This document shows, in pieces, positions 1 to 37,272 of a stretch of DNA of 37,272 nt (position 1 is its first letter; each line of letters begins with the position of its first letter). Origin of the DNA: a virus (taxonomy: Duplodnaviria > Heunggongvirae > Uroviricota > Caudoviricetes); IMG/VR virus record IMGVR_UViG_2917403263_000004, positions 1 through 37,272 of that record. One strand, given 5' to 3'. Made by a program: the position numbers and the translations under genes. Below the pieces are notes generated by a model. That model saw only the letters and a list, made by a program, of their open reading frames with translations. It was not told the origin of the DNA and did no database searches.

Positions 1-144
1 TTACTGTCTACATTGTAAGAACGCCGCAAACTCCGCTCCCCAGAAGCTCATCCGTATCTCGCAGAGCGAACCCTGCAACATCCAGATGATGAGGATTGCC
101 GTCACGCATAGTGTGGTGATGGCGATTAGCGATTTTTGCGACAT
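1..144 (-). CDS. Hok/Gef-family type I toxin (small membrane peptide, 47 aa)
   Basis: Manual translation of minus strand 144..1: MSQKSLIAITTLCVTAILIIWMLQGSLCEIRMSFWGAEFAAFLQCRQ. N-terminal hydrophobic helix followed by SLCEIR...EFAAF, resembling the Hok/HokA/Gef signature. AAGGAG lies 8 nt upstream of the ATG. The stop codon is the first 3 nt of the window. Below the ORF-track length cutoff. Confidence 0.6.
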   Translation of the reverse strand: MSQKSLIAITTLCVTAILIIWMLQGSLCEIRMSFWGAEFAAFLQCRQ

Positions 145-247
145 AGCACTTGCTCCTTTTTCGGAGAGGCGCTAACCTACGACTTGCGAAGGTTGTATGG
201 CTAGGGCCTCGGGTTAACGTTAAAGTTGACTCGGGGCCTTTCCACAT
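8..247 (-). CDS. mok-like overlapping reading frame (modulator of hok translation)
   Basis: 79-aa ORF in the track that overlaps the hok-like ORF almost completely in another frame and starts about 100 nt upstream, as mok does in hok/sok loci. No sequence-level confirmation. Confidence 0.35.
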   Translation of the reverse strand: MWKGPESTLTLTRGPSHTTFASRRLAPLRKRSKCYVAKIANRHHHTMRDGNPHHLDVAGFALRDTDELLGSGVCGVLTM

Positions 248-408
248 CCGGCCTTCAGGTATTCCCTCCAGCCATCAGCCGAAAGGCACCCGCGCGAATT
301 CTAGCCTGGTTTTTTCCCTTGTTTCAATCCGTTGAGACTTATCAGCCTTCTGATGTAAAATTCCCGACCGCAGACATTATTCAGTCACGCATTTGATACA
401 TGCTTCCG

Positions 409-432
409 CCGGCGTTCGCGCCGGTTTTTTTT
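409..432 (+). terminator. Rho-independent terminator (possible Sok-like antisense RNA terminator or hok mRNA 5' structure)
   Basis: CCGGCG-TTCG-CGCCGG hairpin (6-bp GC stem, UUCG loop) followed by T8 on the plus strand. No plus-strand CDS lies upstream. It sits about 160 nt upstream of the mok-like start. Confidence 0.5.
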
Positions 433-909
433 CGTCCTGTTGCTGCGTAGATCGTCATGTGCGATCGAGGCGCGGTATTGATCCTTTTTTCAGTTTAATT
501 CTGGCTCTTGATTTTGTGCAGGCCGCGCCGCGTCTGGCTTCTTTGTTTGATGGTTGTTTGATGTGATCCCTTCGCGATCGTGTCCTGTCTCACGTAAAGT
601 ATGAAAACTCTTTTAATATCAGCCTGTTTTCTTTCTCCTGCCATTTATGGGATCGTAAAAACCTCTCTGAAAACTGCAAAAAATTTCAAAGCGTGAAATT
701 TCAGATCCTCGCTTTTCCCTCAGTCGCTGCGCGGGCTGGCGGTCATTTTTGCACGGCAGAAAACTGAAAAAGTGTTTCGACACGAAACCCGCGGGTTGGA
801 GGGGGTAGCGCGGTTTACGTCACCTCACGCTTTACGTCACACCGTTTACGCGGTATGTGCATACAGCGCCAGAATGGTATGCAGAACGCATTAATCAGGT
901 GGTGGATAT

Positions 910-935
910 GAAAACGCACGGTCGAAGCCGTGCGT
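910..935 (-). terminator. Putative terminator at the end of the late tail operon
   Basis: Hairpin ACGCACGG-tcgaag-CCGTGCGT followed on the minus strand by TTTTCAT, about 40 nt downstream of the last late gene (stop at 975). Confidence 0.45.
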
Positions 936-974
936 TGTGTGGTGGGGCGTTTATGTGGCTTTTATGTCGGGTTA

Positions 975-2672
975 TCAGGCGATAAGGTCGCCGTATTTTT
1001 CACGCAGACTCGTGGCCTGTTGGGCATCTGCGGCAAGTTCGCCGCTGTTCATCGGTGCGCCAGTGTTGCTGTGGGTGTGGTTTGCTGTATGTGTGGCCAG
1101 CAATTGAATCAGGTCCAGAATATCAGTCAGCAACGTCAGCAGGTTAAGCCCGGACTTTTCCCGCGAGCCGCTGCGACCAATAAACACTGTCGGGGCGGTA
1201 AACTCCAGACCGCCGTCCGCCCTGCATGTTCTGCGGCCTCCCACGTTTTCAGTCAGGTCGTGCTCAATCGTTGACGTTGCGCCTTTAAGTTTAGTCAGCA
1301 AATCCTGCGCCACCATCTGGATGTGTTCGCCGGCTGCGATCGCGTAATTGCCGGTAGTAAGGTGTTCTGTCTGGCCTGTCATCAGCTTGCTGGTACCAAG
1401 AACACTGGTTATGTCGTTTGCCTGGACTGTTGTTGTTCTGGTTGTTGTTGTGCGTTCTTCCTGGTCGCTGTTAATGGTTCGCCTGGCAGAATGCTCCCTG
1501 ATTTGCTGGTCGGTTTCCCTGTGCCAGCTTCCGTCAGTCGTGACACGCTGAAACACTTCTGCGCGCTGTTGCTGCAACTGTTCGCCGGGCTTTACATCAG
1601 GCAGGTTATGTCCGGCAGGTAAGATTTGCCTGATGACAGGTTTATCCGGGCGGCCTTCAATACTGGATATTTCCACGATGGTGCCTGCCGGTGGGTAGGC
1701 AAAACATCCCGCCTCGCTACCAGCCATCGGGACAGGGAGCGGTACTGCCGGGTAAACAGGCGTATCGCTTTTGTCGTTGCCGTTCTCATCAAGCAGCTGC
1801 ACGTCCACGGCGTAGCGTGGGCGGAAACTGTCGGCTACATCGCCCAGGGTGGCGGATTCCGTTGGTGCGACGACCCGCGCCAGTCTGGTGTGTAGTGTAC
1901 CGCTGGCCAGTTCCGGAAACTGCGTTTCCATCTGTCTGCGCAATGGTGATTTGGAAACAGGGCTACCCGTGGCGGTGAGGCGCTCCCATGTCAGTGTCAT
2001 TTTCTCGTTGTTGAGGGCTACACGGGTAATACGCCCGGCCGGAAGATTCACACCCGGCCGCACGGTTTCCATGAACATGATGTCGATGCTGTTTCCGCCG
2101 CTTTGCCCGAGTGTGTACTGTTGCGGAATATCGGGCATGGTAATGCTGGCAAACCGTGAATCAGCTGCGTTTCCCACAAATACAGAACCGTCCGGCATGG
2201 GGTGCCAGACGTAATCGCTGATACTGAATGAGCGCCCCAGCTGGCTGAGTAACTGCGTCCCGCTGCCGCTGTGGGTGATGTAGGGAGTTGGTGTGCTGAC
2301 ATAATCCGCATCTGGCGTGATAAAAACGATACCGCTTTGTCGCCCCAGATTATCGAGCACATCCCGCAACGTCGGGTGTTGCATGGAGCAGGGGAAATCA
2401 AAATCCAGCACAGCAGCTGCTTCACGGATAAAAAGGCGACGTGAGCCATTTTCGGCCGGTTGATCGCGTTCTATGTAGCCAGAGAAATAGCGCCAGGCCT
2501 CACCATTACGGCCGAGATCGATTTGCACCATTGCGCCGGCAAGGCTTTTTTCTGGTGACAGATTGTTAACAGAAACGAAGCCGCGACCGGCAGCATTCAG
2601 GGTGAGAGCAAGGCTGATATCGGCAATTTCCACCTGTTCGCCATTGATCATGCAGCGTTGTATCAATTTCAT
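975..2672 (-). CDS. Putative baseplate hub protein (gpD / Mu gp44-like N-terminus with long C-terminal extension)
   Basis: 565 aa, last gene of the tail operon. ATGA start/stop overlap with the upstream gene. The N-terminal pattern (VQIDLGRNGEAWRYFSGYIERDQ ... QHPTLRDVLDNLGRQSGIVF) resembles the gpD/late-control-D family, recalled from memory. Weak assignment. Confidence 0.45.
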   Translation of the reverse strand: MKLIQRCMINGEQVEIADISLALTLNAAGRGFVSVNNLSPEKSLAGAMVQIDLGRNGEAWRYFSGYIERDQPAENGSRRLFIREAAAVLDFDFPCSMQHPTLRDVLDNLGRQSGIVFITPDADYVSTPTPYITHSGSGTQLLSQLGRSFSISDYVWHPMPDGSVFVGNAADSRFASITMPDIPQQYTLGQSGGNSIDIMFMETVRPGVNLPAGRITRVALNNEKMTLTWERLTATGSPVSKSPLRRQMETQFPELASGTLHTRLARVVAPTESATLGDVADSFRPRYAVDVQLLDENGNDKSDTPVYPAVPLPVPMAGSEAGCFAYPPAGTIVEISSIEGRPDKPVIRQILPAGHNLPDVKPGEQLQQQRAEVFQRVTTDGSWHRETDQQIREHSARRTINSDQEERTTTTRTTTVQANDITSVLGTSKLMTGQTEHLTTGNYAIAAGEHIQMVAQDLLTKLKGATSTIEHDLTENVGGRRTCRADGGLEFTAPTVFIGRSGSREKSGLNLLTLLTDILDLIQLLATHTANHTHSNTGAPMNSGELAADAQQATSLREKYGDLIA

Positions 2673-30011: not shown

Positions 30012-30235
30012 CTGTAGTTGCAAGTTTTGAAAACTCACCATCCAGAGGTTGCAATTCTGGGTGGTGAGGCGTACGGGGTTGCAACCACCGGCAACTACAG
30101 AAACCGGCCCGACCGAAGTCGGCCCCATACGCCCCACCATAATTCGTGTGCGAAAAAGACGTGGCGATACGGTACGCACAAAAAAACCGCTGGCGCGGTT
30201 GTGCGCTGTAGTTGTCAGCGGGGGTTGCAATCCCG
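30012..30235. repeat. Cluster of short repeats (CTGTAGTTG and GGTTGCAA motifs) in a 320-bp non-coding region
   Basis: CTGTAGTTG at 30012 and 30206, with the inverse GCAACTACAG at 30091..30100. GGTTGCAA at 30047, 30077 (perfect palindrome GGTTGCAACC) and 30222. Confidence 0.5.
30181..30200 (-). terminator. Putative terminator after the upstream early genes
   Basis: On the minus strand, ACCGCGCCAGCGGT hairpin followed by T7, nested inside an outer CGCACA/TGTGCG inverted repeat. Confidence 0.4.
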
Positions 30236-30321
30236 ACACCCGTTTTATGAGGTGCAGCGGAAATGTAACCTGACTGATTGCGGCATGGCAAGCGGTTTTT
30301 TTGTGTGTGCATGATGATTAC

Positions 30322-34791: not shown

Positions 34792-34860
34792 CTTTACACA
34801 TTGAGCGGATTACATCTCGCAAGGAGTATTTAGTTAATTTATCCGTTGGATGGGCTAATC

Positions 34861-35854
34861 ATGTCGATTAAGCAACTCAAAGACGGACGTTATCAGGTCG
34901 ATGTCAGACCGCAGGGGGCGGAAGGAAAGCGGATTCGAAAAATCTTCGCCCTGAAATCAAAGGCTCAGGAGTTTGAGAAATATGTGTTGCAGAACTTCCA
35001 TGACAAGCCATGGCAGGCTAAGCCAGCTGATCAGCGGCGATTATCAGAGCTGCTTGATGCGTGGTGGATGCTTGACGGGCGTAATCAGGCTTACGGGGAT
35101 AGCTACAGGGTCAGGCTAGAGAAGGTTATTCGTGAAATGGGAGATCCTCGTGCCAGTCATATGACGCGAAAATTTATGCTCGAGTATCGGTCAGAGAAAT
35201 TACAGGCCGGATTAATGCCGTCCAGCATTAATCGTGATTTATGCGTTCTGTCTACCATGTTCACGGTGCTGATTGAAGCTGAGGTCTTTCACAATGCGAA
35301 CCCTGTACGCGGTATACGCAAACTGAAAGTTCAGAACACGGAAATGGCCTTTCTTTCTGATGATGAGATTGAACGGCTTCTTGAGCGACTGGAGGGGGGA
35401 TGCGCGTCGTGTTGCCATTCTGTGTCTTTCTACTGGTGCCCGGTGGAGTGAAGCATCGGAACTACGTGGAGAGCATATCGTTGGCAACCGGGTGACGTTT
35501 TTTAACACCAAAAACGGAAAATCCCGCTCAGTTCCTGTGGCGGATTCGGTTGTGCCTCTGATTAAAACCCGTCGGACGGGGTTGTTGTATCAGGTTAATT
35601 ATCTGGAGTTCCGGGAGATTCTTCAGGAGGTGAAACCGGATTTGCCGAAGGGGCAGGCTACGCATGTCATGCGTCATACATTTGCCACACACTTTATGAT
35701 GAATGGTGGAAATATTGTTACGTTACAACGAATCCTTGGGCACGCCACGATTCAGCAGACAATGACGTACGCTCATTTTTCGCCGGACTTCTTACAGGAC
35801 GCGATCAACTTTAATCCGTTGGCTGAAAGTGTCCATAAACTGTCCATCGATTAG
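34861..35854 (+). pseudogene. int: P2-type tyrosine integrase, frameshifted
   Basis: N-terminus MSIKQLKDGRYQVDV and C-terminal RHTFATHFMMNGGNIVTLQRILGHATIQQTMTYAHF parallel P2 Int. The reading frame shifts +1 at the G6 run 35394..35399 (track ORFs 34846..35451 and 35360..35854); a G5 run would restore ...LERLEG-DARRVAILCLSTGARW. Confidence 0.75.
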
Positions 35855-35940
35855 TTATAATTTGTGTTGATTTGTTCCCCCTGTTTGGGCTTATTCATTG
35901 AAAAATAAGTAAATCATCAGGGGGAGCAAGAAACCTTAAA

Positions 35941-35959
35941 GCGCCTGCGGGCGCTTTTT
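35941..35959. terminator. Hairpin between convergent int and serS (probable bidirectional terminator)
   Basis: GCGCC-tgcg-GGCGC followed by TTTTT on the plus strand and preceded by AAA, about 20 nt downstream of the serS stop. Confidence 0.5.

Positions 35960-35979: not shown

Positions 35980-37272
<1,293 letters not shown>

What the first reader, a model, noticed from the sequence alone, without database searches (positions are those of the whole stretch)
1..432. Hok/Mok-type type I toxin locus at the prophage flank
A 47-aa ORF with the Hok-family signature (SLCEIR...EFAAF) is overlapped by a longer mok-like frame. A strong plus-strand terminator (GC hairpin plus T8) with no upstream plus-strand gene lies in the leader region, compatible with a Sok-like antisense RNA or the structured 5' end of the toxin mRNA. 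It may be chromosomal or the outermost cargo of the prophage; if the candidate att core at 314-324 is real, the junction would fall inside the toxin mRNA leader.
Basis: partly seen in the sequence, partly recalled or inferred. Interest (0 to 1): 0.5.

Follow-up and report, generated by a model that had tools for sequence, protein, structure and literature searches.

The report
Prophage-borne hok/sok toxin-antitoxin cassette

Summary
The 47-aa ORF at 1..144 (-) is a real Hok/Gef toxin: Pfam HOK_GEF is above its cut-off, PHROG 251 gives E 3e-21, and RefSeq annotates an identical protein. It is about 91% identical to members of a Hok cluster reported toxic on overexpression. The leader carries the expected RNA parts. 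These are a sigma-70-like hok promoter (327..298, TSS about 291), a 5' tac element, and a Sok gene on the + strand (promoter 150-178, RNA about 186-243, 16-bp hairpin). The window ends at the hok stop codon, so the 3' fbi element and mRNA terminator lie outside it; relatives have both. The 79-codon mok-like frame exists, but only its AUG and SD are conserved. In 35 of 46 related alleles that ORF is a 17-29-codon leader ORF. The hairpin+T8 terminator (408-432, +) is real but lies about 117 nt upstream of the hok TSS. It is not Sok's terminator and is absent from the same hok cassette in other phages. A promoter-like site at 332-361 makes a ~65-nt orphan transcript possible. The 314-324 "att core" falls in the spacer and -35 of the hok promoter. 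The true att core is the palindromic serS terminator (35938-35959). Known biology, low interest.

The parts
1..144 (-). hok toxin CDS (47 aa; Cys28 and Cys45). The stop codon is the first three bases of the window.
   Evidence: ORF list; Pfam HOK_GEF 29.3 bits > 22; PHROG 251 E 2.8e-21; identical protein annotated Hok/Gef family, WP_000078905.1
8..247 (-). Leader or mok-like ORF: AUG at mRNA +45 with SD GAAGG, 79 codons here, overlapping hok in another frame.
   Evidence: The AUG/SD is nearly invariant, but ORF length varies from 1 to 79 codons among 46 alleles. No PHROG or Pfam family.
153..158 (-). hok Shine-Dalgarno AAGGAG, 8 nt before the hok AUG; overlapped by the Sok -35.
   Evidence: Read from the sequence; nearly invariant in alignment A2
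150..178 (+). Predicted Sok promoter: -35 TTGCTC (150-155), 17-nt spacer, -10 TAACCT (173-178).
   Evidence: Sequence; both hexamers invariant or nearly so in A1. The layout resembling R1 (TTGCGC/TATCCT) is recalled from memory, not tested.
186..243 (+). Predicted Sok antisense RNA (~58 nt): variable ~17-nt 5' tail, 16-bp hairpin (203-240), then UUU.
   Evidence: Fold -30.1 kcal/mol, z -4.7 in Sok sense versus -17.1 in hok sense; hairpin kept in all 39 distinct leaders; 2 of 12 pairs with compensatory changes
131..291 (-). hok mRNA leader matched end to end by Rfam RF01794 (sok/CssrC model).
   Evidence: 38.6 bits, E 7e-7, below the gathering score of 59. The homologous loci in P88 (47.9 bits), L012 (38.5) and Sp5 (35.6) also score below it.
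276..291 (-). 5' end of the hok mRNA (tac element GGGUGCCUUUCGGCUG). Its 3' partner (fbi) lies outside the window.
   Evidence: In 44 of 46 distinct relatives these nucleotides pair with GCCGAUAAGGCACCC-like sequence 48-66 nt after the stop; median -28.5 kcal/mol, z -3.7
298..327 (-). hok promoter: -35 TTGAAA (327..322), -10 TAGAAT (303..298), TSS about 291.
   Evidence: Promoter scan, 10 of 12 matches. The -10 is conserved and the -35 varies with context.
332..361 (+). Promoter-like site divergent from the hok promoter: TTGAGA, 18 nt, TAAAAT.
   Evidence: Scan, 10 of 12 matches. The -10 TA[A/G]AAT is kept in 15 of 18 variants and lost in the three STEC313-type variants.
408..432 (+). Intrinsic terminator (GCCGGCG-TTCG-CGCCGGT plus T8). 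With the promoter-like site it would bound a ~65-nt orphan transcript (about 368-433).
   Evidence: Nearly invariant in 18 variants. Absent from the same hok cassette in P88, Sp5, L012 and L014.
35938..35959 (.). True prophage att core (palindromic serS terminator AAAGCGCCTGCGGGCGCTTT), Int-side junction. The second copy lies left of window position 1.
   Evidence: Comparison with the empty sites of K-12 and Escherichia sp. E1V33 and with both junctions of E. coli A36

Best explanation
[quoted passage not shown] It belongs to the prophage-borne 'MSQKSL...' Hok cluster and is carried as cargo (a moron) next to the att site of a P2-like prophage inserted at the serS terminator. Inferred mechanism, by analogy with plasmid R1 hok/sok: a constitutive promoter (327..298, -) makes a ~400-nt hok mRNA starting at about 291. 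Its 5' tac element pairs with a 3' fbi element, which lies outside the window, and this keeps the full-length mRNA inert. A ~58-nt Sok RNA is transcribed from the opposite strand (about 186-243). It pairs with the leader immediately downstream of a conserved AUG (+45) and blocks translation of the leader/mok-like ORF, and with it the translation of hok, which depends on that ORF. When Sok decays (prophage loss, induction, or transcription shut-off by an infecting phage), Hok is made. Hok is a 47-aa inner-membrane peptide with two cysteines, and it depolarises the cell. The hairpin+T8 terminator at 408-432 belongs to a separate short + strand unit adjoining the cassette in this phage lineage, not to hok/sok. 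Shown here: family membership, element positions, their conservation, and the genomic context. Inferred: transcription, Sok-hok pairing, toxicity of this exact allele, and biological role.
For: Hok matches Pfam HOK_GEF above its cut-off and PHROG 251 'MokW-like host killing', category moron, E 2.8e-21. RefSeq annotates the identical protein as Hok/Gef. Two peptides of the same cluster, 72_1621 and 72_1589, are listed among the tested sequences of bioRxiv 10.1101/2025.08.07.668861. Its text says only three other sequences were non-toxic. 72_1621 differs from the window peptide at 4 sites. Rfam sok matches 291..131 end to end, E 7e-7. The hok promoter was found by the scan. The Sok hairpin folds at -30 kcal/mol (z -4.7) on the + strand, much better than its complement because of G-U pairs. 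It is kept in 39 distinct leaders, while the Sok 5' tail varies. The tac-fbi pairing is kept in 44 of 46 relatives. Context: the cassette occurs in 1678 E. coli records and 198 phage records. It lies inside the P88 and P88-4B11 genomes. It is absent from empty serS-dmsA sites. In a related prophage (ETEC1716) other cargo (a YafO-family toxin gene and a neighbouring gene, an ATP-dependent nuclease gene further out) occupies the same position, with homology to the window starting at 480.
Against: The Rfam score (38.6) is below the gathering score (59), but the homologous loci in P88, L012 and Sp5 also score 35.6-47.9. The fbi element and mRNA terminator cannot be seen in the window. The hok-overlapping mok frame is not conserved, so classic mok-hok coupling is unproven for this cluster: 35 of 46 alleles have a 17-29-codon leader ORF and 2 have none. 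Sok's U-tract is short (UUUCC). No expression data were available. The validated hokW-sokW of Sp5 is a different, HokD-like locus (its primers encode MKQQKAM...), so it gives only family-level support.
Confidence: 0.85

Rival explanations
1. The promoter-like site at 332-361 and the terminator at 408-432 form an independent small-RNA gene. It would give a ~65-nt transcript (about 368-433) with a 3' hairpin and U8, typical of Hfq-binding sRNAs. It is co-inherited with the hok cassette in this phage lineage and acts in trans on an unknown target.
For: The promoter matches 10 of 12 consensus positions and lies back to back with the hok promoter. The -10 TA[A/G]AAT and -35 TTGA are kept in 15 of 18 variants although the spacer varies. 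The body and terminator are nearly invariant while both flanks vary. The 66-nt stretch (368-433) folds at -17.1 kcal/mol, z -2.2. In the 17 of 18 variant sequences where a hok anchor could be checked it lies next to hok, and the related prophage with other cargo lacks this segment.
Against: There is no Rfam family at E<=1. The -10 is lost in the three STEC313-type variants. Complementarity to the window or to hok mRNA is no better than chance: three 10-mers against 2.2 expected, and a duplex within about 1.3 sd of shuffles. Conservation was partly forced by the exact-match search used to collect variants. No expression data.
Confidence: 0.35
2. The terminator at 408-432 is only a backstop or insulator. 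It stops + strand read-through from the weakly terminated Sok gene, or from host transcription entering the prophage end, before it runs antisense into the tail operon. A long Sok isoform (about 186-432) might then exist, which is.
For: Sok's own terminator has only three U (UUUCC), so read-through is plausible. The terminator is oriented correctly and lies between Sok and the tail genes, which are on the - strand. It is strictly unidirectional: there is no A-tract before it and no T-tract on the other strand.
Against: The same hok/sok cassette works without it in other contexts. In P88-4B11 and L012 it lies directly downstream of ogr, and Sp5 and L014 also lack it. The cargo cassette that replaces hok in ETEC1716 has no + strand terminator at the equivalent edge. 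The idea does not explain the conserved promoter-like site just upstream.
Confidence: 0.3
3. The locus is a decaying, non-functional hok remnant like hokA, hokC or hokE of E. coli K-12, which are disrupted by IS elements.
For: The prophage integrase is split by a frameshift, so the prophage may be degenerating. The long mok frame is not conserved.
Against: There is no IS element or disruption. The promoters, SD, ORF, both cysteines, the Sok hairpin and tac are all intact and match many independent copies. The exact peptide is listed in 148 blocks of the public collection.
Confidence: 0.07

Closest known systems
Prophage/phage Hok cluster 'MSQKSL...' (cluster 72 of bioRxiv 10.1101/2025.08.07.668861; PHROG 251; the cassette in Escherichia phage P88, Xuanwuvirus P88-4B11, and between lom and orf66 of Stx phages VT2-Sakai/933W)
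   Same: Same peptide family: 33 of 47 residues identical to the Sp5 copy, and 4 differences from 72_1621. Nucleotide identity is 83-86% over window 1-319. The leader architecture, Sok hairpin, tac/fbi and -10 elements are the same. It is phage cargo in every case.
   Different: The window allele has one extra codon (ITTLCV versus ITFCV) and a 1-nt longer Sok hairpin. That puts the AUG+45 ORF in a frame that runs through hok. In this phage lineage the cassette is joined to an extra 363-480 segment carrying the strong terminator.
hok/mok/sok of plasmid R1 (Gerdes laboratory paradigm)
   Same: A Hok/Gef toxin with the SLCEIR motif. A cis-antisense Sok whose -35 overlaps the hok SD region. Sok consists of a 5' tail plus a long hairpin. 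There is 5'-3' tac/fbi pairing followed by a terminator. The R1 sequences used for this comparison are recalled from memory.
   Different: In R1 mok starts just downstream of the Sok-target hairpin and overlaps hok (70 codons). Here no start codon exists at that place. The only conserved start is AUG+45, upstream of the Sok-target hairpin, and the ORF it opens is usually short.
hokW-sokW of Sakai prophage 5 (Takada et al. 2021, PMC8621323)
   Same: A prophage-borne hok/sok shown to be a working type I TA. Sok loss on induction leads to Hok production and earlier lysis, which suggests one possible role for phage-borne hok.
   Different: It is a different locus. The paper's primers encode MKQQKAM...DYESEK (51 aa, HokD-like by my recollection of the K-12 sequences) with a GGGUGCUUGAGG-type leader, so it is not the orthologue of the window's gene.
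Chromosomal hokA of E. coli K-12
   Same: The Hok is hard-coded with both cysteines; M-x-QK N-terminus, W-M and AAFL-x-C motifs.
   Different: Only 18 of 47 residues are identical. The K-12 copy is inactivated by IS150.

Membership tests
[quoted passage not shown] | Small (~46-55 aa) Hok/Gef-family membrane toxin with a conserved cysteine pair | tested here: met
   Pfam PF01848 29.3 bits > 22; PHROG 251 76 bits. Cys28 and Cys45 are 17 residues apart, as for HokB Cys29/Cys46 described in bioRxiv 10.1101/2025.08.07.668861.
[quoted passage not shown] | Cis-encoded antisense Sok RNA with its own promoter, complementary to the toxin mRNA leader, with a 5' tail plus terminator hairpin | tested here: met
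   Sequence-level only. Conserved -35/-10 at 150-178, and a 16-bp hairpin that is more stable on the + strand (-30.1 versus -17.1 kcal/mol). No transcript data.
[quoted passage not shown] | Leader matches the Rfam sok (RF01794) covariance model | tested here: inconclusive
   Full-length match at 38.6 bits, E 7e-7, but below the gathering score of 59. Homologous loci in P88, L012 and Sp5 also fall below it.
[quoted passage not shown] | mok: an ORF overlapping hok, whose translation is blocked by Sok and coupled to hok translation | tested here: inconclusive
   A 79-codon overlapping ORF exists in the window. Only 9 of 46 related alleles have an AUG+45 ORF that reads into hok; 35 have a 17-29-codon leader ORF ending 13-48 nt before the hok AUG, and 2 have none.
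[quoted passage not shown] | Long-range 5' (tac) to 3' (fbi) pairing that keeps the full-length mRNA inactive, followed by an mRNA terminator | tested here: inconclusive
   The tac sequence is present at 291..276. The window ends at the stop codon, so fbi cannot be seen. It is present in 44 of 46 relatives, including alleles with the identical Hok.
[quoted passage not shown] | Toxicity of Hok and neutralisation by Sok | not testable with these tools
   Only indirect evidence: two peptides of the same cluster are listed among tested sequences and are not among the three reported as non-toxic.
Prophage cargo (moron) at the att-proximal end of P2-like phages | Lies inside the prophage boundaries, outside the conserved structural operons, at a position with alternative gene content in relatives | tested here: met
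   In A36 the att core lies 258 nt beyond the hok stop, and the empty sites lack hok. Alternative cargo sits at the same position in ETEC1716. The cassette is also present in P88 and P88-4B11.

The most novel reading that the evidence does not exclude
Two things are not excluded. (a) The conserved promoter-like/terminator pair at 332-433 may be an undescribed ~65-nt prophage sRNA gene that travels with the hok cassette. (b) In this Hok cluster the 'mok' function may be carried by a short leader ORF that starts at the invariant AUG+45 and reads through the Sok target, rather than by a hok-overlapping gene. That would be a variant of the R1 coupling mechanism.
Probability: 0.3. Interest if true: 0.35.

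Novelty: already known. Interest (0 to 1): 0.15.

Why it matters
It matters little as a discovery. hok/sok loci are a textbook system, their enrichment in prophages has been quantified (6290 Hok homologues in IMG/VR), and this peptide is already annotated in RefSeq. The value here is corrective: the analysis fixes the real limits of the cassette, shows that its 3' regulatory end is cut off by the window, and separates it from an adjoining terminator unit and from the true att site. The non-conservation of the mok frame is a small but useful caution for annotating type I toxin loci.

Tried and rejected
1. Att core at 314-324. An exact and one-mismatch search found no partner near the other prophage end. 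Comparison with empty sites put the core at the serS terminator. Rejected.
2. Terminator 408-432 as Sok's terminator or as a 5' structure of the hok mRNA. Rejected on position (TSS about 291; Sok hairpin at 203-240) and because other copies of the cassette lack it.
3. Orthology with the validated hokW-sokW of Sp5. I assumed this at first from the PHROG name and the 83% match to VT2-Sakai. The paper's primers show that hokW is a different, HokD-like gene. Withdrawn.
4. Link between the candidate sRNA and the prophage 'Pas' sRNAs. Those lie in lambdoid lysis or structural regions and no sequence was available to compare. Not pursued.
5. Target search for the candidate sRNA within the window and against hok mRNA gave chance-level results.
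6. RNAalifold on the full-length mRNA recovered the 5' hairpin (tac pairing with the upstream box) but not tac-fbi, so I tested tac-fbi by duplex folding instead.
8. The exact Int-arm/serS junction is absent from 5426 complete E. coli genomes and from IMG/VR, so its origin stays open.

Full report
**What is in the sequence.** On the minus strand, 1..144 encodes a 47-aa peptide, MSQKSLIAITTLCVTAILIIWMLQGSLCEIRMSFWGAEFAAFLQCRQ. Its stop codon is the very first triplet of the window. It matches Pfam HOK_GEF at 29.3 bits, above the cut-off of 22. It matches PHROG 251 ('MokW-like host killing', category moron) at 76 bits, E 2.8e-21. The identical protein is annotated 'Hok/Gef family protein' (WP_000078905.1) in E. 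coli A36 and is listed in 148 blocks of the public gene collection. Two peptides of the same cluster are listed among the sequences tested for toxicity in bioRxiv 10.1101/2025.08.07.668861. They are 72_1621, which has four differences from the window peptide, and 72_1589, which is identical to the copy in Stx phage Sp5. The paper's text names only three other sequences as non-toxic. The two cysteines (28 and 45) have the 17-residue spacing described there for the HokB disulfide.

**RNA elements of the cassette.**
- The Rfam sok model (RF01794, which is written in the hok-mRNA sense) matches 291..131 end to end at 38.6 bits, E 7e-7. This is below the gathering score of 59. The homologous loci in phage P88 (47.9 bits), L012 (38.5) and Sp5 (35.6) are also below it, so the shortfall is a property of this subfamily.
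- A sigma-70-like promoter lies on the minus strand: -35 TTGAAA at 327..322 and -10 TAGAAT at 303..298. It puts the start at about 291, exactly where the Rfam match begins.
- On the plus strand, -35 TTGCTC (150-155) and -10 TAACCT (173-178) are invariant or nearly so in relatives. They would start a ~58-nt RNA at about 186.
- That RNA has a ~17-nt single-stranded tail and then a 16-bp hairpin (203-240) followed by UUU.
- The hairpin folds at -30.1 kcal/mol (z -4.7) on the plus strand, but its complement reaches only -17.1, because several pairs are G-U. This is what selection on the Sok transcript would produce.
- All 39 distinct leaders collected from relatives keep the hairpin, in three sequence types. 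The 5' tail, which is the recognition region, is the most variable part.
- A formal RNAalifold count is modest, with 2 of 12 pairs showing double changes, because the types differ by 1-nt register shifts.

**The 3' end is missing from the window.** In relatives that carry the identical Hok, the 3' UTR contains GCCGAUAAGGCACCC, which is complementary to the mRNA 5' end GGGUGCCUUUCGGC. It is followed by a terminator, AAACCCGCAGCG...CUGCGGGUUUUCUUUUU. The 5'-3' pairing is found in 44 of 46 distinct relatives, with median -28.5 kcal/mol and z -3.7 against shuffles. So the finding covers only about three quarters of the locus.

**The mok-like frame.** The 79-codon ORF at 8..247 is real. Its AUG (mRNA +45) and SD (GAAGG) are nearly invariant. 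Among 46 distinct related alleles the ORF opened by that AUG varies widely:
- it reads into hok (60-79 codons) in only 9 alleles;
- it is 17-29 codons long and stops 13-48 nt before the hok AUG in 35 alleles;
- it is a bare AUG followed by a stop in 2 alleles.

No start codon exists at the position where R1 mok starts, just after the Sok target (the R1 layout is recalled from memory). The peptide has no Pfam or PHROG family. The long frame in the window is therefore a by-product of the window allele's 1-nt longer hairpin. The conserved feature is a leader ORF that begins 2 nt before the Sok-complementary stretch. Sok binding there would block its initiation, which fits the R1 logic, but coupling to hok is not shown.

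**The terminator.** The hairpin at 408-425 plus eight T (425-432) is real and is oriented for the plus strand only.
- Homology to other copies of the cassette ends at 315-319. This holds for P88, P88-4B11 and the Stx phages, and likewise for L012 downstream of ogr and L014 at another chromosomal site. All of these lack the terminator.
- Segment 363-480 is found only in this phage lineage (50 of 5426 E. coli genomes). It lies next to hok in the 17 of 18 variants where that could be checked, and it is missing where other cargo replaces hok.
- A promoter-like site lies just upstream, back to back with the hok promoter: TTGAGA, 18 nt, TAAAAT at 332-361, matching 10 of 12 positions. Its -10 is kept in 15 of 18 variants. 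This would give a ~65-nt RNA.
- The candidate RNA has no Rfam match and no above-chance target in the window.
- I rate an orphan sRNA at about 0.35 and a plain backstop terminator at about 0.3. Transcript mapping would decide between them.

**Prophage context and the att site.**
- The window is a P2-like prophage with P2-type head genes and a different tail module. The baseplate gene at 975..2672 matches PHROG 2258.
- serS is at 35980..37272 (-).
- Comparison with the empty serS-dmsA site of K-12 and of Escherichia sp. E1V33, and with both junctions in E. coli A36, puts the att core in the palindromic serS terminator. The sequence is AAAGCGCC-TGCG-GGCGCTTT, at window 35938-35959.
- There is no second copy inside the window, so the hok-side junction lies to the left of position 1. 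In A36 it is 258 nt past the hok stop. hok is therefore the outermost prophage gene and not host DNA.
- The 11-mer at 314-324 has no partner elsewhere in the window and sits in the spacer and -35 of the hok promoter.
- In a related prophage (ETEC1716) other cargo (a YafO-family toxin gene and its neighbour, with an ATP-dependent nuclease gene further out) occupies the same slot, so this is a variable cargo position.

**Comparison with known systems.**
- The closest relatives are the phage-borne 'MSQKSL...' Hok loci. Nucleotide identity is 83-86% over window 1-319.
- The experimentally dissected hokW-sokW of Sp5 (PMC8621323) is a different gene in the same phage. Its primers encode MKQQKAM..., so it supports the family-level mechanism and a possible role in lysis timing, not orthology.
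- K-12 HokA shares 18 of 47 residues.
- The enrichment of hok in prophages is already documented.

**Verdict.** This is a correct but ordinary identification and the biology is already known. The secondary claims (terminator in the leader, att core at 314-324) are wrong, and the mok frame should not be annotated as a conserved gene.

Noticed in passing
window 34846-35959 and 35980-37272: The prophage is inverted relative to its flanks compared with relatives. Here the Int arm abuts the 3' end of serS. In A36 and in six of the seven other places shown that carry the identical Hok (L014 is at a different chromosomal site), the hok end abuts serS; in A36 Int abuts dmsA. The att core is a palindrome (arms AAAGCGCC/GGCGCTTT, centre TGCG), and at the window junction the centre has the phage orientation. 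This junction is absent from 5426 complete E. coli genomes and from IMG/VR. It could be a rare wrong-orientation integration, an inversion between the two palindromic att copies, or an assembly artefact.
   Followed up: partly
window 34846-35854 (+): The integrase is split into two overlapping ORFs (34846..35451 and 35360..35854) by a frameshift near residue 180. Otherwise it is 92-98% identical to the intact 330-aa Int of the A36 prophage. It is either a pseudogene or a sequencing error.
   Followed up: partly
window 36100-37272; L143: The host is not typical E. coli. The 3' part of serS is at most 95.9% identical to any complete E. coli genome, but 98.7% identical to Escherichia sp. E1V33, whose serS-dmsA site is empty.
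   Followed up: partly
window 30057-30255 (-): Rfam matches above gathering score to C4 antisense RNA (82 bits) and isrK (58 bits). This is a P1/P7-type c4/immI-like immunity element inside a P2-like prophage.
   Followed up: no
window 430-975: A ~540-bp conserved stretch without a convincing ORF lies between the hok cassette and the last baseplate gene. It contains direct repeats of TTTACGTCAC / GTTTACG at about 805-850. A minus-strand hairpin (AACGCACGG...CCGTGCGTT plus TTTCATAT, about 944..912) looks like the tail-operon terminator. The function of the repeats is unknown.
   Followed up: no
window 186-203 (+) and relatives: Among 28 distinct Sok sequences the 5' tail (the antisense recognition region) is the most variable part, while the lower hairpin stem is nearly invariant. 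This is consistent with diversification that avoids cross-talk between co-resident hok/sok loci. Many E. coli genomes carry several copies (up to 7 places per genome).
   Followed up: partly
window 226-396 (+): A 56-aa TTG-start ORF antisense to the hok leader matches PHROG 24458 (unknown function) over its first 27 residues. This is most likely a family built from spurious ORF calls on the strand opposite hok leaders.
   Followed up: no
L142 (VT2-Sakai 44127-45240): Stx phage Sp5 carries an unannotated second hok locus (46 aa, MSQKSLITVT...) between lom and orf66. It is distinct from the published hokW-sokW.
   Followed up: partly
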